IMG/VR virus record: IMGVR_UViG_3300048995_000010
Location: 1 to 64,000 of that record
Direction: 5' to 3' (one strand)
Origin: a virus
Taxonomy: Duplodnaviria > Caudoviricetes
Length of the DNA: 64,000 nucleotides
Both the position numbers and the translations under genes were made by a program. Under the pieces are notes generated by a model. That model saw nothing but the letters and a program-made list of their open reading frames with translations. It was not told where the DNA came from and ran no database searches. Below, piece by piece: positions 1,460-58,931 of this stretch. Position 1 is the stretch's first letter; the number at the start of each line of letters is the position of its first letter.

Positions 1460-1470
1460 ACAAAACAGCT

Positions 1471-1992
1471 ATGCTCAAGGAGCTATTAAAGGAGATCAGA
1501 AATACCAATCTGTGTACCTGGTATTTACTCCCAATCATTGGTCTCAACAGGTTTAGTTTCGATGGACTCTTCCTTAACAGTTATCTGGAGAGGCGCCGAA
1601 TGTGGGTCATCGTTCATGTACCTGATATTAATCTGGTTCCACGGCAGTATGTAGGTCATGCGATCCGAACATGGAGTAATATCCGGGGTGGGTACCTGGC
1701 TTACGAACTTGCTGATTACTGGAAAGATGATGTCTATGCTTACATGAGTGGTAAGTACTCCAGATTTTCTGATGAACTGAAGGCTCTTATCATCGAACGG
1801 TCTGGTCTTTCATACCAGGAGCCTACTGAGTCTGGTACTTTCGTAACAGACTTCAGACTTATGGCATTGAAAGGTCATCAGGAACTAAGAACATACCTTT
1901 GTAGTGAACTCAATGTCACCGAAGATTCCCTGCCGGAAGATTTGTTGTCAGTTCCACCACCAGAGTCATTCATGGATGTAACAGAGGTGTAG
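1471..1992 (+). CDS. hypothetical protein (replication-arm gene; F/MxxGKYS motif)
   Basis: 173-aa ORF with AAAACAGCT-ATG leader, followed by a terminator. Confidence 0.75.
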   Translation: MLKELLKEIRNTNLCTWYLLPIIGLNRFSFDGLFLNSYLERRRMWVIVHVPDINLVPRQYVGHAIRTWSNIRGGYLAYELADYWKDDVYAYMSGKYSRFSDELKALIIERSGLSYQEPTESGTFVTDFRLMALKGHQELRTYLCSELNVTEDSLPEDLLSVPPPESFMDVTEV

Positions 1993-3671: not shown

Positions 3672-3699
3672 GGAGTAGTTTACGCTACTCCCTAAAAAA
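3669..3699. terminator. terminator at the convergence of the + and - gene arms
   Basis: TAGGGAGTAG-TTTACG-CTACTCCCTA perfect 10-bp stem with an adjacent A-run. Confidence 0.75.
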
Positions 3700-4447: not shown

Positions 4448-4463
4448 AGGTGTTGATTTTTGA

Positions 4464-4471
4464 TGAAGATA
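4464..4471 (-). promoter_or_regulatory. Bacteroidota-type -7 box (TATCTTCA)
   Basis: Variant of TAnnTTTG recurring upstream of many genes here. Confidence 0.55.
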
Positions 4472-10300: not shown

Positions 10301-13300
10301 ATCTGCGCTTCAGAAGCTATATCTGCCCACTCTTTATCTACTCTCGCCAGATTGTTATTATCTCCATACATTACTGTGATTAGGTTTGTCCATAACTCCA
10401 GTATTCTATCTGCTACAACAATGTCATTGATACTTGGATTCTTCCGTGTCATGATATCATTCACCCATTTAAGCTGAGTCTTGCCAACACTTGCTATAAG
10501 GGAAAGATCCTGCTCGTCTTTTAGTTTGAGGATCTCATTGTCCAGATCATCCAGGAGTTTACGTTTACGTACAGCCTGTTCTTGAGTGATGGTACCAGTA
10601 AATGTCTGCTTGATCTCTCTTTTCTGATCTTCCAGGCGAGCAATAATTGTCTCCAACTTTCTGGCTTCAGTACTACCAATATTCATAGAGGCCATACTTG
10701 AATTTTTGAAAACATCCGGATTGACCTCAGCTATACCTTTTGGTGTAATGGTAGACACAGCCTTATCCATGTACATGACATTCATAGCAGCTTTTACACC
10801 TTCTTCTAACAAAGAACCTTGTTGAACTCCTATTCCGATAAATTCTGCAATAGAATTCATAATGGCAGATATAGCATCCATTACCTTATCCCAGAAAGAT
10901 TTCTCTATACTAGCCTGTCGGTTATTCAACCACTTCATCACATCTTTATCTGTGAAGATGTGAGCCAAAAATTCAGCATTGGAAGTTAAAGCATACTCCA
11001 ACTTCTCTTTCATACCCTCAGCTATAGTCAACTCCTTCACTTCCTTTTTGAACTGTTGATATGCCTGTTCACGGACGGTATTGAGTGCTTTCACATTCTT
11101 ATAGATCTCCGGATTTTCAGCAATAAGTTGTCTGGAGATCTTCAGCCACTTCTGATAATTTTCTTCTCCCAGTTTCCTTTTGTAGTATTCCTCGTTATCA
11201 ACTATATCAAAAAGAGTAACAGTCCCAGCTGTATGGTAGTGAATCAACTCGTGGATAAGTGTCTTATTGAAATCCTTATACTGTAAGGCTGTACTGAATT
11301 GCAAAAGATTACTATCAGAACTCATTTTTGCATCTTCTCCAGTCTTCTGCAGGACTGTAGTAAACTCATACCGGAAAGCAGAACGATCCCCCAGGGTCTG
11401 GGTAAGTAAACTATTCTCTACTGCTACCTGAGGTTTATTAAGCATCTCAGCCAGCTGCTGGTAGAGAACAGGTACGGTAGGAGTAGAAGTCATCTGATCC
11501 AGTACATTACTAATGAATCCCCATCCGCCTACAGTGGGGATACCATATATCTCTTGTGCATGACTAGACTGAGTCTCTTTTGTTTTTGAAAGTTGATAGG
11601 CTTTATTCTCTGGAATAATCGATTCACCAAATGAAGGAGAGTATTCATCGATCTGATTGTTTCCCAGGTAGTCTATACGCTCATAGTTAAGGTAAGAAGT
11701 CTGCTGATAGATAACCCACTTGTTGGTTTCAGTATCCCGGAGAGTCAAAAATTGAGGATATACTTCTAATCCATCCTTCCTTACCCATAATTTTCTGGCA
11801 GGGTGTTCAGGATCTTCCTGGTTTATTACCGGAACTGTAAATGACTCAGGATACTGTTCATAAGGAGTACCTGTCTCCTTGAGGTCTGGTGAGATCTGTT
11901 TACCATACTGAGGATAGTGCTGCAAAAATTGAGTGATGAAGATCTCCGGGATAGCTTCTCCAGTCTGTAACTCCTCAGTAGCCTCTAGTAAAGAGGTACC
12001 CAGGATATAACTGACAGGGATATGTCTTGCCAGTGTGGAAGTATTACCAGTGAGAATCGCATATCTTACCAGATCTTCTCCTAATTGACGCCGGGACTCA
12101 TCCTCAGATGAGAGAATATCATTCCAACTTCTAGCTACCTCTGCAGCATCAAAACCAGTAGAGATTCCTAATGAGTAAGTCACAAAATCTGGACCTGCAC
12201 CAATAGTAGTCAGGTTAGATTCCAATCGCTGAAGCAAGTAGTTATTTCTACCCCAGGAGATTTTTGCATCCTGTACTCTCTTTGCCAGAGATGGTCCATG
12301 ATTACCAGAATAGAAGAGTCTCACTCTATCCTGTAGAATAGCTTCATCCTTACCCCATATTGGAGCTGAAGTCCATTGATAAGCCAGGAACCCTTCCGTA
12401 AGAGCCTGCTGTACTTTTGGAGAAATGAAAGTGGCACCAGTAGTCTCCTTGAATTTATCCAATACCGGAGTTAGTTTATCATAGGGGAATACTTCCAGAG
12501 CGATACTATTGATAGCCTTCATCAAGTTTTCTCGGATATACCCCTGCTCTGTAGAGTCCATTTGATCTAAACCTTGAATCTCTATTCCCCCGGAGATAGG
12601 ATTGGCAACCTGAGTATCAGTAATGGCATTTTCTTTACTAAGGGCAGTCACAATCGAAGCACCTGGTCCCCCTACATCCCAGTTGTATGCACTCTGTACA
12701 TCGGCCAGTTGTCTTCCCATCTTCCAGAGAATATCAAATAATTGTAGTACTGCCAGTTGTCTCTCATAGAAAGGTTTCGAATCTTTTGCTGTCCAGTCAT
12801 TTCGAAGATCTGTAAGATTGATCTGAGCAGGATTACTGGAGTTATGCCCGGCTAGTTGTGCATATTTCATTCCCAGGTCCTCTATCACTTTACCATATAG
12901 ATCAGACTGGAATGAATCAGAAAGACTGTCATTGGCCTGAGACATTTTCTGAGCAAACTCCATGATTATAGGTTGACGTAGTAATGCAGCCAGTTCTGGG
13001 ATACCTGCAGCTACTCCTTCTTTTGATTGCAGTCGAAGCAGAGCAGCTGCAGCATTGAAGGTGTACAGATTCAGATTGATCTGGGGAGTCACTGGGTCTT
13101 TGGCGTGATCCAAAAATCCAGACAAGAGAGTTACAATATTATCATGCTTAGTTCGACGGGCACCACCCAGGTCATGGTTGGTACTTTCTCCATACCCAGA
13201 TAACTGACTGAGTTGATGTACCTGCCCATTAGGATCTACCATTTCAAGACTAAAGGGAACAATTTCAGGTTTACCAGTCTCCTCATTTATAACCTTGCGA

Positions 13301-39780: not shown

Positions 39781-40719
39781 TTAAACTTTTGGTTTATCTC
39801 TAGTCGCTCTTGCTTTTTTCATAATATCCTGTGTTGTCCCTTTGAGGTAATCCACAGTATCTGAATTCTCCTTGTTCTCCAGGTAGAGTAATGCCTCTAA
39901 TTCAGAGGATCCCATTTTTGTTTTTGTCTCTCTCACGACAAAACTGGTACCAACAGGTTCTACTACTCTGGCTTGGATCATAGCCTTTAACCAGTAACGA
40001 AGTTCAAATCTATCTTCCTGATATACTTTCAGGAAATCAGTAGCATTCTTTCTCACTATATCTCCCAGAGCAGTTTGCTTACGTTGTTCTTCGTTACGTC
40101 CCAGGAAGTCACGGGAATCTTTACCCAGCATAGTAAGGAGCATATTGACCTTACTTGGTTGTCCTTTGATTTTTAACCAGATTGCTTCAGCTTTATCCTG
40201 TACAACTATCCGATCATTATTGAGTTTATCTGCTTGTTCTGAATCGTAAATGTAGAAGTACTTTAGTTGATTTCCATCGGCACCAATCTTATCAGAAGCT
40301 ACCCATGGATGGCTTTTGGCATGTCTGTAGCGAATGAAGTCTTCTATCTTGATAGGGAGATTCTCAGTACTGAGTGGTTCTTCATTACTTTTCTCAAGTC
40401 CAATCTCCAGGTCTTTACCGGTACCATATGGGACTTTTGTCTTCAGGTTATTGAAGAAGTCATAGACTTTTGAGCGGAACTCCTTTTCATCAGATTCTAC
40501 ATTAATGATATAAGGCATCAACAGCTTCTCTTCTGCTCTACTTAAACCACTCCCTATCAGGCGGTTCGAAAAAGACTCAAAATAGGGACCTATCCCTATC
40601 TCTGTCATAGACATATAGCTACTGATCTGTTCATTTTCTGTGGGATTCTGTGCTCGTTGTATGAAGTTATCAGCACGAAATAATGTGATCTTACGACTGT
40701 TTGCATGAGTACTGGACAT
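39781..40719 (-). CDS. conserved protein downstream of MCP (crAss gene-75-like)
   Basis: Synteny; PIKIEDFIRYRHAKSHPWVA motif. Confidence 0.65.
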   Translation of the reverse strand: MSSTHANSRKITLFRADNFIQRAQNPTENEQISSYMSMTEIGIGPYFESFSNRLIGSGLSRAEEKLLMPYIINVESDEKEFRSKVYDFFNNLKTKVPYGTGKDLEIGLEKSNEEPLSTENLPIKIEDFIRYRHAKSHPWVASDKIGADGNQLKYFYIYDSEQADKLNNDRIVVQDKAEAIWLKIKGQPSKVNMLLTMLGKDSRDFLGRNEEQRKQTALGDIVRKNATDFLKVYQEDRFELRYWLKAMIQARVVEPVGTSFVVRETKTKMGSSELEALLYLENKENSDTVDYLKGTTQDIMKKARATRDKPKV

Positions 40720-40741
40720 GTGGTATAGTGTTGTTTTGTAA

Positions 40742-40749
40742 CAAATATA
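40742..40749 (-). promoter_or_regulatory. canonical Bacteroidota -7 box TATATTTG
   Basis: Exact TAnnTTTG 22 nt upstream of the ATG at 40719. Confidence 0.65.
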
Positions 40750-40765
40750 AGCATCTGTGTCTAAA

Positions 40766-40795
40766 TGAAGAAAGTCTCCCTGGTGAGGGAGACTC
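40766..40795 (-). terminator. MCP terminator
   Basis: GAGTCTCCCT-CACC-AGGGAGACTT then TCTTC. Confidence 0.8.
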
Positions 40796-40819
40796 TACGA
40801 ACAAATAACAACAGCTATA

Positions 40820-42355
40820 CTATCCAGCCGTACAGATCAGGTCAAAGCACCTGTTTGCACGAAGAATTTGAATACCCTGTGAACGGAAGCGGGTGTACGA
40901 AGCCTGGTCAACATCTGTTGCAAGCATGTTCGATACGTTTGTACCATTGCCCAGTAACAGTTCCAGTGATCTCGGCATGTCTGTCAGACCTTTCACTACA
41001 CCATGTAGATAAGCACGTTTCTTCTGACATACGTGTTGGATATTTGGCTGACCGTCGTAATCACTTGAGTCAATGAAGCTCATCCGGTAAGATTCCAGGG
41101 GGAAGCCAGTTTCTGGATGAACTACACCACCGGCCTGCTGGTTTACAGCTACACGGCCGTGATCATAAACAGGGTTGTATTTTACACGGATGGTATATCC
41201 GTCAATGTGATAGAAACCAGAGAAGAAACCACCCAGCATCAGGTCATGCTGACGGCCACCAGTACCAGATACGAATTTATCTGATACCATACCCCAATCG
41301 CTGAGGAAACCTTTTCCTTCTGTTTTCATAGCACGATCCATTTCTCTGAGACCACCTTTACCGGTCCACAGGTCAATGACCATGTTATCAGTATCTGACT
41401 GACCATACAGGGAATCTCCTACGAAATTCATCAGGTTGTTGTAGGTCAGGGAAGCGTAAGAAGATTTGTTCTGGATCTGTTCTAGTACACCAGAAGCAGT
41501 AGGAATCACTTTACCAGTGATCAGATCTTTCAAAGGAATAGTACCATCAGCACGACGGTTGTAGCGGCTATACCAGTAGGCATTTTCACAGATATCCAAC
41601 CACTCCTGTTCGAACTGGTACATGAACCAGTCCATCCACATTTCAGTCTCTACACCATTATTGGACTTCAGCTTAAACTTCATCACCTTGTTGGCAGAGT
41701 TACCAGCCCATGACATACCATGACGATGGAAACCCATTTGGTTTTTCCACAGACCTGGCATCACCATGTTTGAGTCAGTAGAACGAGACTGACTTTCAGG
41801 TACGTTGGTGGTCATACCGATCCAGGTAGCCCCATAATCCAACTCTGTGAAAGGACAGTAGTCAGTATCTGCAGCAGGGTTTAATTGACACTTGTACTTA
41901 AAGGTACCATCGGGCTGACGCTCGGGATCTTCCAGTACGTAGGCAGTGATGCCACGGGCAGACTGAATTGTCCAGTACCTTTTAATCCAGTTGTCAAAGA
42001 AGTAGAGGAAAAACTCAGTGTGACCTATACCGGCTTTATCAATAGAAGTATAGTCAGTTTTTGCAACCTGTGAAGGCTTGAACCGGCGACCCATTACCGG
42101 GTAGGTAAACTGAACATCATCCAACTCTTTAGCAGAGGATTCGAAGTTGTCCTTATTATAACCAATACCACCCAGTGTCATGGTAGACAAGGGATATTGT
42201 TTATTCATGTCACCCAACATATAGGTGAGCTTACGAGTGAGTTCAGAAGGTGCGCCTTGACGCTGATGGTAGAAGTTGTTTTCATCCAGGAGACTCACAG
42301 CATCATAGATCATCTCTTGGACCTGATATTTTAATGCGGGTTGAAATTGGCTCAT
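40820..42355 (-). CDS. major capsid protein (HK97 fold, crAss-like)
   Basis: 511 aa after portal and scaffold; GVLEQI, LWTGKGG, GGFFSGFYHIDG, ESYRM motifs; followed by a terminator. Confidence 0.88.
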   Translation of the reverse strand: MSQFQPALKYQVQEMIYDAVSLLDENNFYHQRQGAPSELTRKLTYMLGDMNKQYPLSTMTLGGIGYNKDNFESSAKELDDVQFTYPVMGRRFKPSQVAKTDYTSIDKAGIGHTEFFLYFFDNWIKRYWTIQSARGITAYVLEDPERQPDGTFKYKCQLNPAADTDYCPFTELDYGATWIGMTTNVPESQSRSTDSNMVMPGLWKNQMGFHRHGMSWAGNSANKVMKFKLKSNNGVETEMWMDWFMYQFEQEWLDICENAYWYSRYNRRADGTIPLKDLITGKVIPTASGVLEQIQNKSSYASLTYNNLMNFVGDSLYGQSDTDNMVIDLWTGKGGLREMDRAMKTEGKGFLSDWGMVSDKFVSGTGGRQHDLMLGGFFSGFYHIDGYTIRVKYNPVYDHGRVAVNQQAGGVVHPETGFPLESYRMSFIDSSDYDGQPNIQHVCQKKRAYLHGVVKGLTDMPRSLELLLGNGTNVSNMLATDVDQASYTRFRSQGIQILRANRCFDLICTAG

Positions 42356-42372: not shown

Positions 42373-43446
42373 TTATAATTCAGATACAGCTGGGTGAATG
42401 CCAGTCTTGTTATTTCTTTGTTGATTAGGATCTTCTGATGTTTTTGGTTTCTTCTTCTCAGTACCCATTTGAAACTTCAACCGTTTCACCACACCTTCAT
42501 TCACTTTGTTTTTAATGATGTCTGAGAGATTACCATTTACATTCAAATAGTATAATGACTCTATCAAGTTTCCCATATTGGTGTCATTGACTTCCTGATT
42601 GACATACCAGCGGCCGGTTTCCCGGTCCAGTACCATCATACTACTAACGAACTGCAAAAATTCAGCACGACGAGCATCTGGAATGGTAATCCCAAGATTC
42701 TTATTCTCCAGGATTCTTTCCCTGAGCGTTACACTCATTTTGTTGATGGTCTGTTCTTCCCTTTTTTGACGCTGTGCATCAAGTTCCAGCAGATCTTCCA
42801 TCTGCTTCTTCTCCTTGAACTGTCGATCCTTATATTCAGTTTCAACCAGCCCTGGAAGTTTGTTCTTTTCGATTGCGTCCTTTATAATAAGGTCAGCCTG
42901 ATCGGGAAGTATACCTTTGCTTGTCAGAGATCTTTTATAAAATGCTTGTTGTAAATCTACAGACTCTTTAAGGACTTCCCACTCTGGAAGAACCTCACTT
43001 TTGTTCTTAAAAAAGTCTTCATCTGAGCCCCCGTTAGCCCTATGCAACATGTACGAGTACGCTCGTGGGTCACCTTCCTGAATATCTTTCTCAAATTTGT
43101 CTATTGCATGATCCTCTATCTGTTGCATAGCTGAGTGCAAACCAGCAGGAGTAGTAGGATCAATGCCTTCACCAAACTTGAATTGGAAGTCATCCCCACG
43201 AAGTCTGGACACTTCCTTGTAGATTTCAATGGGATCTGCTTCTGTTTCTTCTACTGAAGTTTCGTTTGTCTGTTCTTCAGTTCCTTCTCCCTCTTGTTTC
43301 TGCTCTTCTCCTTCAGTCTCTTCAGTTTTCTCTTCTATAGTTTCCTCAGTAGGAGTGGCTTGTTGTTGTTGTTGAACAGGGGGTTTATCCAGATCAGCTA
43401 GTGATGGCAGGATTCCTGGTTTTTGCTGTTGTTGATTTGTGTCCAT
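42373..43446 (-). CDS. putative capsid scaffolding protein (crAss gene-77-like)
   Basis: Acidic Q/E-rich N-terminus and coiled coil; lies between portal and MCP. Confidence 0.7.
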   Translation of the reverse strand: MDTNQQQQKPGILPSLADLDKPPVQQQQQATPTEETIEEKTEETEGEEQKQEGEGTEEQTNETSVEETEADPIEIYKEVSRLRGDDFQFKFGEGIDPTTPAGLHSAMQQIEDHAIDKFEKDIQEGDPRAYSYMLHRANGGSDEDFFKNKSEVLPEWEVLKESVDLQQAFYKRSLTSKGILPDQADLIIKDAIEKNKLPGLVETEYKDRQFKEKKQMEDLLELDAQRQKREEQTINKMSVTLRERILENKNLGITIPDARRAEFLQFVSSMMVLDRETGRWYVNQEVNDTNMGNLIESLYYLNVNGNLSDIIKNKVNEGVVKRLKFQMGTEKKKPKTSEDPNQQRNNKTGIHPAVSEL

Positions 43447-49027: not shown

Positions 49028-49102
49028 TAAAATCAGGTCTCATAGGCGGAATGGATCTTCATAGGGGCCTACTTAGAGGCTGTTGTTATATGTGCGGATG
49101 GG

Positions 49103-49384
49103 TTAGTCCTGGAAATGTGCTGTCAATCCTTTAATAGTAAAGACACATGCTTTCTCTAAAGCAGCTTGAGCTACTGCAAATTCTCTGGCAGTTCTGTTCT
49201 TCCAATCAGTGTCTTTTTCAATTCTGGCGAGTTCCTTGTTCTTGAGAAGTTCTATTTGATCCCACATATCTGCATATCGTTGCTTGGCCTCATCTACCAT
49301 TGGATCTTTGCTAGGATTGAAACTTGCTCGCATTACTTTCTGACCATTTGAGAGAACTGGCTTTGTTTGTATACTGGCTTCCAT
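49103..49384 (-). CDS. Acb2/Tad1-like anti-defence signal-sponge protein
   Basis: FNPS..VDEAKQRYADMWDQIE...REFAVAQAALEKACVFTIKGLT helical hairpin. It has its own promoter (TTTG-N19-TATATTCG at 49402-49432). Confidence 0.6.
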   Translation of the reverse strand: MEASIQTKPVLSNGQKVMRASFNPSKDPMVDEAKQRYADMWDQIELLKNKELARIEKDTDWKNRTAREFAVAQAALEKACVFTIKGLTAHFQD

Positions 49385-49429
49385 AATAGCTGTTGTTTTA
49401 ACGAATATAGGGTGTTTGTACATACTAAC

Positions 49430-55762: not shown

Positions 55763-56056
55763 TTACTGCTTCGGTTTAGTCTGACGAAGCTGACTATTCA
55801 ATGTGGAATCATTTGCCTGATTGACCAGGAAGTCTGCCATCTCATTAGCAGTTTTTGCATCTACCATCTGTGTATAACGGATCAGGTATACCAGGGTGTT
55901 GAAGTTGGGAACCGGTATCCTGAGATTTACCATGGGCTGAAGTGGCTGTGCTTGAGTTGTTGGTTGAGGGATTTCCTTCTTCTCTTTGTTTTTGGTCTGA
56001 GCCTGTAGGGATAATGCAAAAACAAAGGAAAGGGATAGTACTGTGATGCGTTTCAT
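55763..56056 (-). CDS. secreted small protein
   Basis: MKRITVLSLSFVFALSLQA|Q signal peptide; TATCTTCA box at 56071-56078. Confidence 0.7.
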   Translation of the reverse strand: MKRITVLSLSFVFALSLQAQTKNKEKKEIPQPTTQAQPLQPMVNLRIPVPNFNTLVYLIRYTQMVDAKTANEMADFLVNQANDSTLNSQLRQTKPKQ

Positions 56057-56078
56057 AGCTGTTGTTTTGATGAAGATA

Positions 56079-56816
56079 TTATGAATTGATCAATTGTGGT
56101 AATCCTGCCATGTATGTCTTTAGCATTCTGTGTAATTTATGATTCCATCTGGCATCAGCCAAGGCATGGTGCTCATTATCTCCAGGTACATTATCATCCT
56201 TCCATTGTTTAGTGAGAGATAGTTCATCCATCATCTGCTTGAGATCTCGGCAGTACATCGGATAACCTTTAGGGAGATCCAGCATTCTATCAAAGAGTGA
56301 ACAGAATAAGACCCAGTCATAGTCTGCGTAGTAACCATAGAACACAGGAGTATCTATTGGATCAGGATTTTCCTTGAGCAGTCCTCGGAATTTAACCTGA
56401 CTAGTGAAATCCTCAATTTCTTTTGCTATCTGTTTGTTGCTTTTACCAAATTGTGCAATCAGTTGTTTCAAGTGAGAATAGGTGAATGTCTCCCAGCATG
56501 AGGTATACTCTTTCTGTGCTCCAGTGATCTGCTTTCTGAGATGTAACCATAGGGGCTTGAGTACATTCTCCCGTAGCCAATACACTTTTACAGGAGGATC
56601 TCCCATCTCCAGTTGTGACTTCAAATCATACTTATTCCATACATGCTTCAAGTCAAACTCATTGGACACCGCGTAGTAGTCTCTACCATCTTCAGCTACG
56701 ATACCAATAGAGATTAGATCAATGTAGTGTCTGGGCTTCTCCCGTTTAAAGTCAGGAATAACCAGACAACTATTTGTAAAGTCTTCAATAAATTCCGTGT
56801 CAAGATAGTAATTCAT
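56079..56816 (-). CDS. DEDDh 3'-5' exoribonuclease (Rv2179c-like)
   Basis: YYLDTEF, LISIGIVAEDGR, YADYDWV, HHALADARWN. Confidence 0.88.
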   Translation of the reverse strand: MNYYLDTEFIEDFTNSCLVIPDFKREKPRHYIDLISIGIVAEDGRDYYAVSNEFDLKHVWNKYDLKSQLEMGDPPVKVYWLRENVLKPLWLHLRKQITGAQKEYTSCWETFTYSHLKQLIAQFGKSNKQIAKEIEDFTSQVKFRGLLKENPDPIDTPVFYGYYADYDWVLFCSLFDRMLDLPKGYPMYCRDLKQMMDELSLTKQWKDDNVPGDNEHHALADARWNHKLHRMLKTYMAGLPQLINS

Positions 56817-56832
56817 AGGGCTGTTGTTTCAC

Positions 56833-56978: not shown

Positions 56979-57158
56979 TCAGTATGGTGTTTCCACCTTC
57001 TTTTTCTTGAATGTTATGGTGATGAACAACTGATAGGTTACTACCAGTAGAGTACCGAGACTCCCTGTTCCCAGTGCTTCATCAAAAATTAGAGGAGGGA
57101 GTCCACACAGTAGTGCTTGCTTCTCTCCTGGTACCTTATGCTTTTGGTAGAACTCCAT
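56979..57158 (-). CDS. small membrane protein (59 aa, MEFYQKHK...)
   Basis: Read manually; hydrophobic segment then KKKK. Confidence 0.45.
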   Translation of the reverse strand: MEFYQKHKVPGEKQALLCGLPPLIFDEALGTGSLGTLLVVTYQLFITITFKKKKVETPY

Positions 57159-57507
57159 CTTGCTTTTGTTTTTGATTGACTCTGCAGAGCCTGATGCCGG
57201 CTTCTTCTAATAAAGGAAGTAGTATATCTCTCACATAATGCCTGGAACCCCCACCGGTAAGTTCATGTTTTGCATCTGCTCGTCTTACTACCTCAGTAAC
57301 GGCATCATATGTCTCAGCCTTTGAATTATCCAGAAGTTGTATAGCAGGATCTATTCCAAGAATATGTCTAGCAGCTTTTTTACTATATTCCACTCTTTTT
57401 GGATCATTCTCTTGGAGTTGTTCATATAGTCCCTTTTCAAAGGACTTCTTTAATGCTGGGTCATTATTACCAGTAGGACCATCTGTGAGGGAGTTCCTTT
57501 TATCCAT
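57136..57507 (-). CDS. hypothetical protein (MDKRNSLTDG...)
   Basis: AACAACAGCT-ATG leader and TATCTTCG box (57522-57529) fix the start at 57507, not 57648. Confidence 0.7.
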   Translation of the reverse strand: MDKRNSLTDGPTGNNDPALKKSFEKGLYEQLQENDPKRVEYSKKAARHILGIDPAIQLLDNSKAETYDAVTEVVRRADAKHELTGGGSRHYVRDILLPLLEEAGIRLCRVNQKQKQDGVLPKA

Positions 57508-57530
57508 AGCTGTTGTTTGTTCGAAGATAC

Positions 57531-58456: not shown

Positions 58457-58619
58457 GTGTCATTTTTGGTTTGATATCCCACAAAAATCCCCTCAAGGTA
58501 GGGAACATCCTGGCTATCTGTTGTAGCTGGAACTGTTCCTGCATTTTCCACTCTACATAATCCATCCAGACTGGAGGAATCTCTTGTTCTACTGGATTAC
58601 CATGTTGATCGAGTATCAT
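58443..58619 (-). CDS. small hypothetical protein (58 aa, MILDQHGNP...)
   Basis: Read manually; ATGA coupling to the upstream gene. Confidence 0.55.
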   Translation of the reverse strand: MILDQHGNPVEQEIPPVWMDYVEWKMQEQFQLQQIARMFPTLRGFLWDIKPKMTHATT

Positions 58620-58858
58620 CCTTGAGCTCTTTTACTTGGAGGTAATGGGACTATTGGCAATCTAATCTCTGTGCCATCTACAGAAACCATTGCCTGGTGA
58701 GTGGATACACCTACTGGTATTCCCAAAAATTGGAATGGGGTACCACACTGCTCACAAAAACACCTGACATCAGCCATATACTGATTTACCTGTCCGGTAT
58801 CATTAGTAAGACGGTGAACTGTACCCTGAATTTGAAAGATCTCGTGTTGACAATCCAT
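58616..58858 (-). CDS. small Zn-binding protein (MDCQH...CEQCG)
   Basis: CxH and CxxC pairs; AATAACAACAGT-ATG leader and TATCTTCA box (58875-58882). Confidence 0.65.
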   Translation of the reverse strand: MDCQHEIFQIQGTVHRLTNDTGQVNQYMADVRCFCEQCGTPFQFLGIPVGVSTHQAMVSVDGTEIRLPIVPLPPSKRAQG

Positions 58859-58931
58859 ACTGTTGTTATTTGTATGAAGATACAGAAATCTTACATCTCT
58901 CACTGGGGAAACGTACGTCTGTACTGGAGAT

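What the first reader, a model, noticed from the sequence alone, without database searches (positions are those of the whole stretch)
40766..40822. Major-capsid 3'UTR carries the antisense of a leader shared by many phage genes: candidate late-phase translational switch
Seen: between the MCP stop and its terminator, the mRNA reads UAUAGCUGUUGUUAUUUGUUCG (40798-40819). This is the reverse complement of a leader placed right before the start codon of several genes. AACAACAGCUAU (12 nt) precedes ATG 57507, 56056 and 49384 (Acb2-like). ACAAAUAACAACAG (14 nt) precedes 58858, AACAACAGC precedes 56816 and AACAGCUAU precedes 1471. For 57507 the pairing extends a further 6-7 nt past a bulge. Established: Bacteroidota initiate translation on A-rich leaders without a Shine-Dalgarno, and 3'UTR-derived sRNAs repress by covering the initiation region. 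Inference: an abundant late transcript, or a 3' fragment cut from it, could silence a regulon of accessory genes, which would couple capsid output to their shut-off. I do not know of this being described for crAss-like phages.
Basis: partly seen in the sequence, partly recalled or inferred. Interest (0 to 1): 0.85.

Follow-up and report, generated by a model that had tools for sequence, protein, structure and literature searches.

The report
Anti-start-site arm in capsid mRNA tail
The tail of this crAss-like phage's major-capsid mRNA carries a 22-base stretch complementary to the start regions of the next gene and several other phage genes; it keeps its position and co-varies with those starts in about 30 related soil and freshwater phages, so it probably throttles their translation, though no experiment shows this yet.

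Summary
The 22-nt stretch at 40798-40819, between the MCP stop codon and its terminator, is the reverse complement of a leader word that sits directly before at least six start codons.

The word is not a private leader. It is this phage's general start-region motif: AACAG lies before 21 of 111 genes, against 3.3 expected.

New here:
- The same arm also forms a 25-bp helix in cis with the leader and AUG of the next gene (39781-40719). That helix encloses the terminator and the next gene's own promoter box.
- In about 30 related metagenomic phages (MCP 47-63% identical), a pre-terminator arm at the same place is complementary to each genome's own start regions. The usual partners are the genes flanking MCP, and in some lineages a small gene homologous to 49103-49384. 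The arm sequence differs between lineages.
- Own-versus-swapped tests give p<2e-5 and p=1.8e-4. Other terminator-bearing intergenic regions show no such signal.
- MCP's own start region is spared.

Best reading: a conserved RNA anti-start-region arm on the capsid mRNA that acts in cis and probably in trans. No RNA data exist for this phage, and the duplexes show no wobble asymmetry that would prove the RNA strand. An overlapping first-stage read of this same stretch reached a similar idea.

The parts
40820..42355 (-). Major capsid protein CDS; stop codon UAG at 40820-40822
   Evidence: ORF list; PHROG phrog_11589 major head protein, E 1.4e-65; 25-32% identity to the listed annotated crAss-like MCPs
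40798..40819 (-). Anti-leader arm in the MCP 3'UTR (mRNA: UAUAGCUGUUGUUAUUUGUUCG)
   Evidence: Sequence; 12-mer statistics; duplexes with start regions
40801..40828 (-). 5' strand of the predicted 25-bp cis helix: the arm plus the last MCP codons and the stop codon
   Evidence: RNAfold of 40705-40830(-): MFE -42.8 kcal/mol, z -5.6 against 200 shuffles; 23.8 expected arm-TIR base pairs in the ensemble
40771..40796 (-). Intrinsic terminator hairpin of the MCP transcript, followed by a U-rich but interrupted tail (about 40761-40770)
   Evidence: Terminator scan, inverted repeat I2, hairpin search; a hairpin at the same place in every relative examined
40742..40749 (-). TATATTTG, a Bacteroidota-type -7 promoter box (TAnnTTTG) for gene +1. 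It lies between the two strands of the cis helix
   Evidence: Coordinates. TAnnTTTG-like boxes sit at the same relative place in most relatives that carry the arm (sequences). The consensus itself is from established knowledge; no TSS was mapped.
40711..40739 (-). 3' strand of the cis helix: leader, AUG (40717-40719) and codons 2-3 of gene +1
   Evidence: Mean unpaired probability of -12..+6 is 0.23 on read-through RNA against 0.63 on an RNA starting after the terminator
39781..40719 (-). Gene +1 (312 aa, function unknown); the cis partner of the arm
   Evidence: ORF; no Pfam, PHROG or PDB sequence hit; AF2 pLDDT 93; only a C-terminal part of about 61 aa resembles the RecA C-terminal domain
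57505..57523 (-). Leader and AUG of the 123-aa gene 57136-57507; the best trans match (19 bp, -24.1 kcal/mol). Preceded by a TATCTTCG box at 57522-57529
56054..56066 (-). Leader and AUG of the 97-aa gene 55763-56056 (13 bp, -18.1 kcal/mol)
49382..49397 (-). Leader and AUG of the 93-aa gene 49103-49384 (14 bp, -17.4 kcal/mol). Homologues in relatives keep complementarity to their own arm in 4 of 7 lineages
58856..58873 (-). Leader and AUG of the 80-aa gene 58616-58858 (15 bp, -19.9 kcal/mol)
56820..56828 (-). Leader word before the 245-aa gene 56079-56816 (Rv2179c-like 3'-5' exoribonuclease domain); a weaker match (-13.3 kcal/mol)
1463..1473 (+). Leader and AUG of the 173-aa gene 1471-1992 on the other transcription block (21 bp with bulges, -22.9 kcal/mol)

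Best explanation
The stretch between the MCP stop codon and its terminator is a conserved RNA 'anti-start-region' arm. It base-pairs with translation initiation regions that carry this phage lineage's leader word.

Bacteroidota-type initiation has no Shine-Dalgarno pairing and depends on an open, A-rich leader. Pairing with the arm should therefore block ribosome loading.

Two modes are predicted in this genome:
- In cis. On RNA that reads through the MCP terminator, the arm and the last MCP codons close a 25-bp helix over the leader and AUG of the next gene (39781-40719). Transcripts that start at that gene's own TATATTTG promoter, which lies inside the loop, lack the arm and stay open.
- In trans. 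On terminated MCP mRNA, or a 3' fragment of it, the same arm can meet the 13-21-bp matching leaders of 57507, 58858, 56056, 49384, 1471 and others.

MCP's own start region lacks the word and is spared. The predicted net effect is that high capsid-mRNA levels hold down translation of the neighbouring and like-leadered genes.

Shown: the sequence complementarity, its conservation in position, its co-variation, and the predicted folds. Inferred: that the pairing happens in RNA, that it represses, and how the effect divides between cis and trans.
For: (1) The exact 12-mer occurs 3 times before start codons and once inverted in the MCP 3'UTR. 0.49 copies are expected, and 0 of 100 shuffles reached 4.

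(2) The cis fold has MFE -42.8 kcal/mol and z -5.6, with the U and G of the AUG paired. The gene +1 start region is 0.23 unpaired on read-through RNA against 0.63 on an RNA starting after the terminator. Across 40 loci the same comparison gives Wilcoxon p=1.5e-5.

(3) In relatives with MCP 47-63% identical, the segment between the stop codon and the terminator is complementary to start regions of the same genome. Mean z is -2.2 for gene +1 (54% below -2) and -3.0 for gene -1 (67% below -2). For MCP's own start region it is -0.5.

(4) The arm sequence differs completely between lineages and the start regions differ with it. Examples are CUACUGUAUAG, ACUGUUUGGGU, CAUAGUUUAGUUUAGUU and CUCUGUAGUUUGGUUUC. 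With one representative per cluster, own versus swapped energies are -11.95 versus -6.65 for gene -1 (p<2e-5) and -8.66 versus -6.02 for gene +1 (p=1.8e-4).

(5) The signal is specific to the MCP intergenic region. Mean z is -2.9 for MCP regions (n=14) and -0.07 for other terminator-bearing intergenic regions of the same loci (n=22); Mann-Whitney p=2.6e-4. In this genome it ranks first of 8.

(6) Further same-strand start regions match the arm in 18 of 155 cases (z<-2.5). They include homologues of the window's 49103-49384 gene, which match in 4 of 7 lineages with 3 different words; swap p=0.006.

(7) In one large subclade the arm sits in the loop and upper 5' stem of a hairpin just before the terminator. 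The stem co-varies, has G.U pairs in the mRNA sense, and the loop ACUGU is invariant in 13 sequences.

(8) A quick MCP tree places the arm in almost all major branches. It is missing from one nested AT-rich clade, which suggests old origin and later loss.

(9) Established background: SD-less initiation in Flavobacterium is tuned by mRNA structure (PMC6847099). The MCP transcript is the most abundant in the crAss-like phage phi14:2.
Against: - The arm/start-region duplexes show no excess of G.U pairs in the mRNA sense. Antisense-strand energies are equal or slightly better. The complementarity is essentially Watson-Crick, so it does not by itself show that RNA of this strand is the active form.
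- In a 190-nt model of the terminated transcript the arm is only 0.31 unpaired, because it pairs with upstream coding sequence in silico.
- The leader word is generic in this genome (AAACA before 33 of 111 genes, AACAG before 21 of 111). Many trans matches could therefore follow from one selected partner.
- In this window the gene -1 start region, the commonest partner in relatives, does not match (z +0.4).
- In the hairpin-bearing subclade the cis pairing to gene +1 is predicted to be weak, at 0-6 bp.
- The cultured relative phi14:2 and an AT-rich subclade have short 3'UTRs and no arm. The element is therefore dispensable for crAss-like phages in general.
- Gene starts were called heuristically, and the shuffles were mononucleotide.
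Confidence: 0.48

Rival explanations
1. Cis-only insulator. The arm serves only to sequester the start region of the next gene on RNA that reads through the MCP terminator. That gene is then translated only from its own promoter, and leakage from the very abundant MCP transcript does not inflate its output. The trans matches are by-products of a shared generic leader word.
For: - The 25-bp cis helix includes the AUG (z -5.6) and encloses the terminator and a TAnnTTTG box.
- It gives the largest drop in start-region accessibility of any locus except L069.
- The same picture appears in L069, L080, L021/L054, L003 and L062.
- The terminator's U-tract is interrupted, so read-through is plausible.
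- Intramolecular pairing is kinetically favoured (inference).
Against: - In relatives the best partner is usually gene -1, about 2.7 kb upstream of the arm. Read-through cannot bring it to the arm.
- In L067 and L007 the arm matches gene -1 but not gene +1.
- In the large hairpin-bearing subclade the cis helix is predicted to be weak.
- Homologues of 49103-49384, 9-10 kb upstream, keep matching their own arm in 4 of 7 lineages.
Confidence: 0.2
2. RNA-end or processing element. The arm pairs with a start region on the same long transcript to build a duplex that is cut by RNase III or shields the RNA ends. This sets the stability of the MCP mRNA. Any translational effect on partner genes is secondary.
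For: - The long, nearly perfect duplexes (17-25 bp in WIN, L069 and L080) are of the size RNase III accepts (established knowledge).
- In the 47-49% clade gene -1 has its own TAnnTTTG box. Its whole 5'UTR could then pair with the 3' arm of the same gene -1-MCP mRNA (sequences).
- Precedents: the icaR and hbs 5'/3'-UTR interactions (PMC3868564, PMC5737220).
Against: - In this window no start region upstream on the MCP transcript matches the arm.
- In the 60% clade gene -1 follows portal after about 40 nt with no recognisable promoter, so its leader is not an RNA end.
- No cleavage data exist.
Confidence: 0.12
3. DNA-level element. The leader word and its inverted copy are binding sites for a phage DNA-binding protein, or substrates of recombination between terminator-promoter cassettes. 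The inverted copy after MCP then has no RNA role.
For: - The duplexes are Watson-Crick, with no mRNA-sense wobble bias.
- The genome carries another strongly over-represented, orientation-independent DNA word, CAAAAACA, in 103 copies.
- The copy after MCP resembles the 57507 cassette beyond the core: a hairpin, then TCT-CGAACAAA.
Against: - Only the 10-20-nt core is shared in relatives and the flanks are unrelated, so recent duplication does not explain the similarity.
- The copy is always in the inverted orientation and always between the MCP stop and the terminator.
- Tracking a changing word across at least 6 lineages is easy for RNA pairing. It is hard for a protein plus many sites (inference).
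- The flanking hairpin stem co-varies with G.U pairs in the mRNA sense.
Confidence: 0.1
4. No function. The match is a chance or decaying by-product of low-complexity leaders (A/C-rich) and 3'UTRs (U/G-rich).
For: The leaders are compositionally biased. Flexible duplex searches always find some pairing.
Against: - Shuffle z-scores, the swap tests and the control intergenic regions all reject a purely compositional origin.
- Matches of 17 of 17 nt (L069) and 20 bp (L080) occur.
- The position is conserved across MCP divergence down to 47% identity.
Confidence: 0.1

Closest known systems
S. aureus icaR mRNA: a 3'UTR motif pairs with its own 5'UTR ribosome-binding region (PMC3868564); B. subtilis hbs 5'/3'-UTR interaction (PMC5737220)
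   Same: A short motif in the 3'UTR of a protein-coding mRNA is complementary to a translation initiation region. Pairing is proposed to block ribosome loading and invite RNase III.
   Different: - In icaR the target is the same gene's Shine-Dalgarno. Here MCP's own start is spared, and the partners are other genes (neighbours and like-leadered genes).
- The host type lacks SD pairing.
- The arm co-varies with several partners across a phage clade.
- No experimental data exist here.
3'UTR-derived trans-acting sRNAs of enterobacteria (CpxQ, SroC, DapZ, MicL; named from my own knowledge, MicL also listed)
   Same: The seed lies just 5' of the parental mRNA's terminator. It is complementary to start regions of several mRNAs, so output of the parent gene would be coupled to repression of others.
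   Different: - No evidence that a small RNA is released.
- Bacteroidota lack Hfq (own knowledge).
- The parent is a phage capsid gene and the targets are phage genes.
- One partner lies on the same read-through transcript.
Phage T4 genes e, soc and 49: the start region is sequestered in a hairpin on long upstream transcripts and open on transcripts from a promoter inside the hairpin (own knowledge, not checked in the library)
   Same: The upstream strand of the helix is present only on read-through RNA. A promoter between the strands gives translatable RNA. This is the geometry predicted for gene +1.
   Different: - A terminator sits inside the loop.
- The upstream strand is the 3'UTR plus the last codons of the capsid gene.
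- Both genes are probably late, so the logic would be stoichiometry rather than timing.
- The same arm also matches distant genes.
P1/P7 c4 antisense RNA (own knowledge)
   Same: A phage RNA, made from the same operon as its target, presents loops complementary to a ribosome-binding region. The hairpin-loop display in the CUACUGUAUAG subclade looks similar.
   Different: c4 lies upstream of its target and is a processed, dedicated RNA. Here the element is the untranslated tail of a structural-gene mRNA.
RNA phage MS2 Min Jou long-distance interaction (own knowledge)
   Same: Capsid-gene sequence pairs at long range with the start of the next gene and gates its translation.
   Different: MS2 couples positively, because coat translation opens the helix. 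Here only the last three MCP codons lie in the helix, and in relatives the arm lies well past the stop codon.

Membership tests
3'UTR-derived trans-acting sRNA | Seed complementary to target start regions and conserved or co-varying with them | tested here: met
3'UTR-derived trans-acting sRNA | Shares the intrinsic terminator of the parental mRNA, with the seed just 5' of it | tested here: met
   Terminator at 40771-40796, arm at 40798-40819; the same layout in relatives
3'UTR-derived trans-acting sRNA | A discrete, stable small RNA accumulates, by processing or from an internal promoter | not testable with these tools
   Needs RNA data from an infection
3'UTR-derived trans-acting sRNA | Targets change in level or translation when the seed is mutated | not testable with these tools
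   Needs an experiment
Intramolecular 3'UTR-to-start-region pairing (icaR type) | The 3'UTR motif is complementary to a start region carried on the same transcript | tested here: inconclusive
   Window: met only for gene +1 on read-through RNA; MCP's own and gene -1's start regions do not match. Relatives: gene -1 matches, but transcript boundaries are unknown
Intramolecular 3'UTR-to-start-region pairing (icaR type) | The duplex is cleaved by RNase III and lowers translation | not testable with these tools
   Needs an experiment
T4 e/soc-type transcript-specific start-site occlusion | The start region is paired with upstream sequence on the long transcript | tested here: met
   Prediction only: MFE -42.8 kcal/mol, z -5.6; unpaired probability 0.23 against 0.63
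T4 e/soc-type transcript-specific start-site occlusion | A promoter lies between the two strands, so the short transcript lacks the upstream strand | tested here: inconclusive
   TATATTTG box at 40742-40749, and TAnnTTTG-like boxes at the same place in most arm-bearing relatives. No TSS was mapped
Any described RNA family (Rfam 15) | Covariance-model match at or near the gathering score | tested here: not met
   Best hits were 15.2 bits (gathering score 49) and 12.5 bits (gathering score 40)

The most novel reading that the evidence does not exclude
The 3' end of the capsid mRNA is the master riboregulator of a crAss-like phage clade. It is a trans-acting anti-start-region RNA whose sequence defines each lineage's shared leader word. 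Scaffold-like gene -1, gene +1/+2, a conserved small gene upstream of the packaging module, and other like-leadered genes co-evolve with it. Their translation is shut down in proportion to capsid mRNA abundance. This would be an SD-independent form of global late translational control.
Probability: 0.3. Interest if true: 0.8.

Novelty: new variant of a known kind. Interest (0 to 1): 0.62.

Why it matters
If the arm works as predicted, it would be the first regulatory RNA element described for crAss-like phages. It would also be a clear case of post-transcriptional control in hosts that initiate translation without Shine-Dalgarno pairing, where simply closing an A-rich leader should be enough to repress.

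It would explain why several genes in each phage lineage share a 10-14-nt leader word that differs between lineages. It would also give a simple way to set capsid-to-scaffold-to-accessory stoichiometry from one abundant mRNA.

The comparative signal makes the idea directly testable with reporter constructs and compensatory mutations. That signal comprises arm position, co-variation, control intergenic regions, and MCP's own start being spared.

Tried and rejected
- RNA evidence: the look-up of sequencing runs listed no RNA holder. Only soil-metagenome DNA runs from one study were listed, and one of them is probably the source sample.
- Close relatives: none exist in the phage records. DNA matches cover only 71-84 nt (about 5% of the query), and MCP identity to the listed records is 25-32%. 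A first IMG/VR scan gave 2 loci; alignment-based scans gave 78 more.
- The genome search cannot open the metagenome contigs behind the loci, so only 7.5-21.5 kb per relative was analysed.
- Rfam: nothing near threshold.
- Literature: no paper found describing such an element in crAss-like phages.
- Wobble test for the RNA strand: no mRNA-sense bias, so it is uninformative or mildly contrary.
- phi14:2: same gene order, but a short 3'UTR without an arm. Its published RNA-seq therefore cannot be used as a proxy.
- + strand promoter or gene reading of the arm: no TAnnTTTG box upstream, and ATA where the leaders have ATG. The + strand ORF 40765-41076 lies antisense within MCP with no support. Rejected.
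- Bidirectional-terminator reading: the + strand has no T-run after the hairpin. Rejected.
- Function of the partners: Pfam, PHROG and PDB sequence searches were negative for gene -1, gene +1 and the small targets. Foldseek against PDB found no match for gene +1. The VIA wide search matched only a RecA-C-terminal-like module.
- The careful MCP tree did not finish; the quick tree was used.
Full report
**What is there.** The window is the first 64 kb of a 99,350-bp crAss-like phage genome from a soil metagenome. Terminase, portal, a 357-aa gene ('gene -1'), MCP (40820-42355), a 312-aa gene ('gene +1', 39781-40719) and further structural genes lie on the - strand. This is the same order as in Cellulophaga phage phi14:2.

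The MCP mRNA ends UAG-UAUAGCUGUUGUUAUUUGUUCG (40798-40819). Three nucleotides later comes a GC-rich hairpin (40771-40796) with a U-rich tail.
- The exact 12-mer AACAACAGCTAT occurs four times. Three copies sit directly before ATG 57507, 56056 and 49384, and one is inverted in the MCP 3'UTR. With up to 1 mismatch 0.49 are expected, and 0 of 100 shuffles reach 4.
- The 14-mer precedes 58858.
- Shorter versions precede 56816 and 1471.
- Duplex energies with the 3'UTR arm run from -24.1 kcal/mol (57507, 19 bp) to -13 kcal/mol.

**What the leader is.** Several of these small genes carry a cassette: a terminator, a TATCTTC(G/A) box (a variant of the Bacteroidota -7 element TAnnTTTG), about 10 nt, then CAACAGCTATG. 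The word is not private to them. AAACA lies within 22 nt of 33 of 111 start codons (3.4 expected), AACAG of 21 (3.3 expected) and CAAAAACA of 12 (0.9 expected). The arm is therefore antisense to the phage's general start-region word and fits best the genes that keep the full word.

Gene +1 has a member of the same leader family, ACAAAACAACACUAUACCACAUG, only about 60 nt beyond the terminator. Folding 40705-40830 as one RNA gives a 25-bp interrupted helix. One strand is the arm plus the last MCP codons (40801-40828). The other is the leader, the U and G of the AUG, and codons 2-3 of gene +1 (40711-40739). The MFE is -42.8 kcal/mol, with z -5.6.

The helix encloses the terminator and a TATATTTG box (40742-40749). 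An RNA starting at that promoter would carry the 3' strand but not the arm. In the ensemble, the gene +1 start region is 0.23 unpaired on read-through RNA and 0.63 on an RNA starting after the terminator.

**Relatives.** No close relative exists. MCP identity to the listed phage records is 25-32%. Alignment-guided scans recovered 80 loci from IMG/VR and JGI metagenomes with MCP 47-63% identical, 49 of them non-redundant. A terminator hairpin after MCP was found in every locus where it was searched.

In most of them the segment between stop codon and hairpin is complementary to start regions of the same genome, and its sequence has turned over completely between lineages:
- UAUAGCUGUUGUU in this window
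- CUACUGUAUAG against CUAUACAGUAUG in eight loci
- ACUGUUUGGGU against ACCCAUAACAGU
- CAUAGUUUAGUUUAGUU against AACUAAACUAAACUAUG (17 of 17)
- CUCUGUAGUUUGGUUUC against a 20-bp partner

Against shuffled arms the mean z is:

| Start region | Mean z | Share below -2 | n |
|---|---|---|---|
| Gene +1 | -2.2 | 54% | 35 |
| Gene -1 | -3.0 | 67% | 30 |
| MCP's own | -0.5 | 11% | 36 |

With one representative per arm cluster, a genome's own pairings beat swapped ones: -11.95 versus -6.65 kcal/mol for gene -1 (p<2e-5) and -8.66 versus -6.02 for gene +1 (p=1.8e-4) (an earlier version is).

The signal is specific to the MCP intergenic region. Other terminator-bearing intergenic regions in the same loci give mean z -0.07 (n=22), against -2.9 for MCP regions (n=14); Mann-Whitney p=2.6e-4. 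In this genome the MCP region ranks first of eight.

A quick MCP tree shows the arm in nearly all major branches. It is absent from one nested AT-rich clade with short 3'UTRs and from the outgroup phi14:2. The simplest reading is an old element that was lost once or a few times.

**More than one partner.** Gene -1 starts about 2.7 kb upstream of the arm, so read-through cannot explain its match. In L067 and L007 it is the only neighbour that matches. Excluding both neighbours, 18 of 155 other same-strand start regions still match their arm at z<-2.5. These include a small gene just after gene +1, and small genes 9-10 kb upstream.

The latter are homologous to the window's 93-aa protein 49103-49384 (blastp E 1e-7 to 1e-10). 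Their start regions match their own arm in 4 of 7 lineages with three different words; swap p=0.006.

**RNA structure.** In the CUACUGUAUAG subclade and several others, the arm occupies the loop and upper 5' stem of a hairpin immediately before the terminator. RNAalifold on 13 sequences recovers this stem. It shows compensatory changes and G.U pairs in the mRNA sense, and the loop ACUGU is invariant. This resembles the loop display of antisense RNAs. It also lowers the predicted cis pairing to gene +1 in that subclade.

**Cautions.**
- The arm/start-region duplexes show no wobble bias toward the mRNA strand, so a DNA-level explanation is not excluded by that test.
- In a 190-nt model of the terminated transcript the arm is partly paired with upstream coding sequence (0.31 unpaired). 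Translating ribosomes would be expected to keep that region open (inference).
- In this window gene -1 does not match.
- Gene starts were called heuristically and the shuffles were mononucleotide.

**Mechanism.** I commit to an RNA anti-start-region arm (0.48). On read-through RNA it closes the gene +1 start in cis. On terminated MCP mRNA, or a fragment of it, it can pair in trans with like-leadered starts. MCP's own start is exempt. SD-less initiation in Bacteroidota is tuned by mRNA structure (PMC6847099), and the MCP transcript is the most abundant in phi14:2 (10.1101/2020.03.07.982082). The expected effect is therefore late repression of the partners in proportion to capsid mRNA.

The rivals are cis-only insulation (0.20), an RNA-stability or RNase III element (0.12), a DNA-level site or recombination product (0.10), and no function (0.10).

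**Comparison with known systems.**
- In mode of action it is closest to the icaR 3'UTR/5'UTR anti-SD interaction (PMC3868564) and to 3'UTR-derived sRNAs.
- In geometry it is closest to the T4 e/soc/49 start-site hairpins with an internal promoter.
- In loop display it is closest to P1 c4.

The T4 and P1 comparisons rest on my own knowledge. It is not a member of any Rfam family. Membership in the 3'UTR-derived sRNA class cannot be decided without RNA data.

**Novelty.** I rate it a new variant of a known kind: a phage structural-gene 3'UTR, in an SD-less host context, whose arm co-varies with several start regions across a clade.

Noticed in passing
whole genome (G000), e.g. window 3672-3690, 4449-4470: The 8-mer CAAAAACA/TGTTTTTG occurs 103 times (58 + and 45 -), against 2-3 expected per strand. 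It is found in both orientations and inside genes. Only 12 copies lie in start regions. Its reverse complement TGTTTTTG resembles the -7 box TAnnTTTG.
   Followed up: partly
genome coordinates 75013, 75243, 76263 and 78551 (+ strand, outside the window); window 3495: A handful of genes carry Shine-Dalgarno-like AGGAGG or AGGAG 6-9 nt before the ATG, in a genome whose other leaders are A/C-rich and SD-less.
   Followed up: no
window 39781-40719 (-): Gene +1 gives a confident AF2 model (pLDDT 93) with no Foldseek match in PDB. Only residues 237-301 resemble the RecA C-terminal domain (VIA Z 9.8, rmsd 1.4, 61 aa). This gene is conserved next to MCP in all relatives and in phi14:2 (g090).
   Followed up: partly
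window 42373-43446 (-): Gene -1 has a long acidic, Q/E-rich N-terminus and no family hit. From its position between portal and MCP it may be the scaffold.
   Followed up: partly
window 56079-56816 (-): A 245-aa protein with an Rv2179c-like 3'-5' exoribonuclease domain (Pfam E 1.5e-9). It has its own TATCTTCG cassette and a weaker copy of the leader word. The intergenic region upstream of it is the second-best arm-like case in this genome (z -2.3).
   Followed up: partly
window 49079-49089 (-): A sense copy of the leader word (AUAACAACAGC) lies in the 3'UTR of the 93-aa gene and is not directly followed by a long ORF.
   Followed up: no
L052:about 11500-11800: In one relative the MCP-gene +1 intergenic region is 294 nt long and contains a tRNA-like segment (GGTTCAAATCCCAC T-arm) between the terminator and gene +1.
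   Followed up: no
L069:12673, L075:12701, L080:12645: A small gene just after gene +1 in the 47-49% clade looks GroES-like by eye (..GGI.(I/L)P..; not tested). It has the strongest arm match of all: L080, 20 bp, -24.3 kcal/mol, z -9.4.
   Followed up: partly
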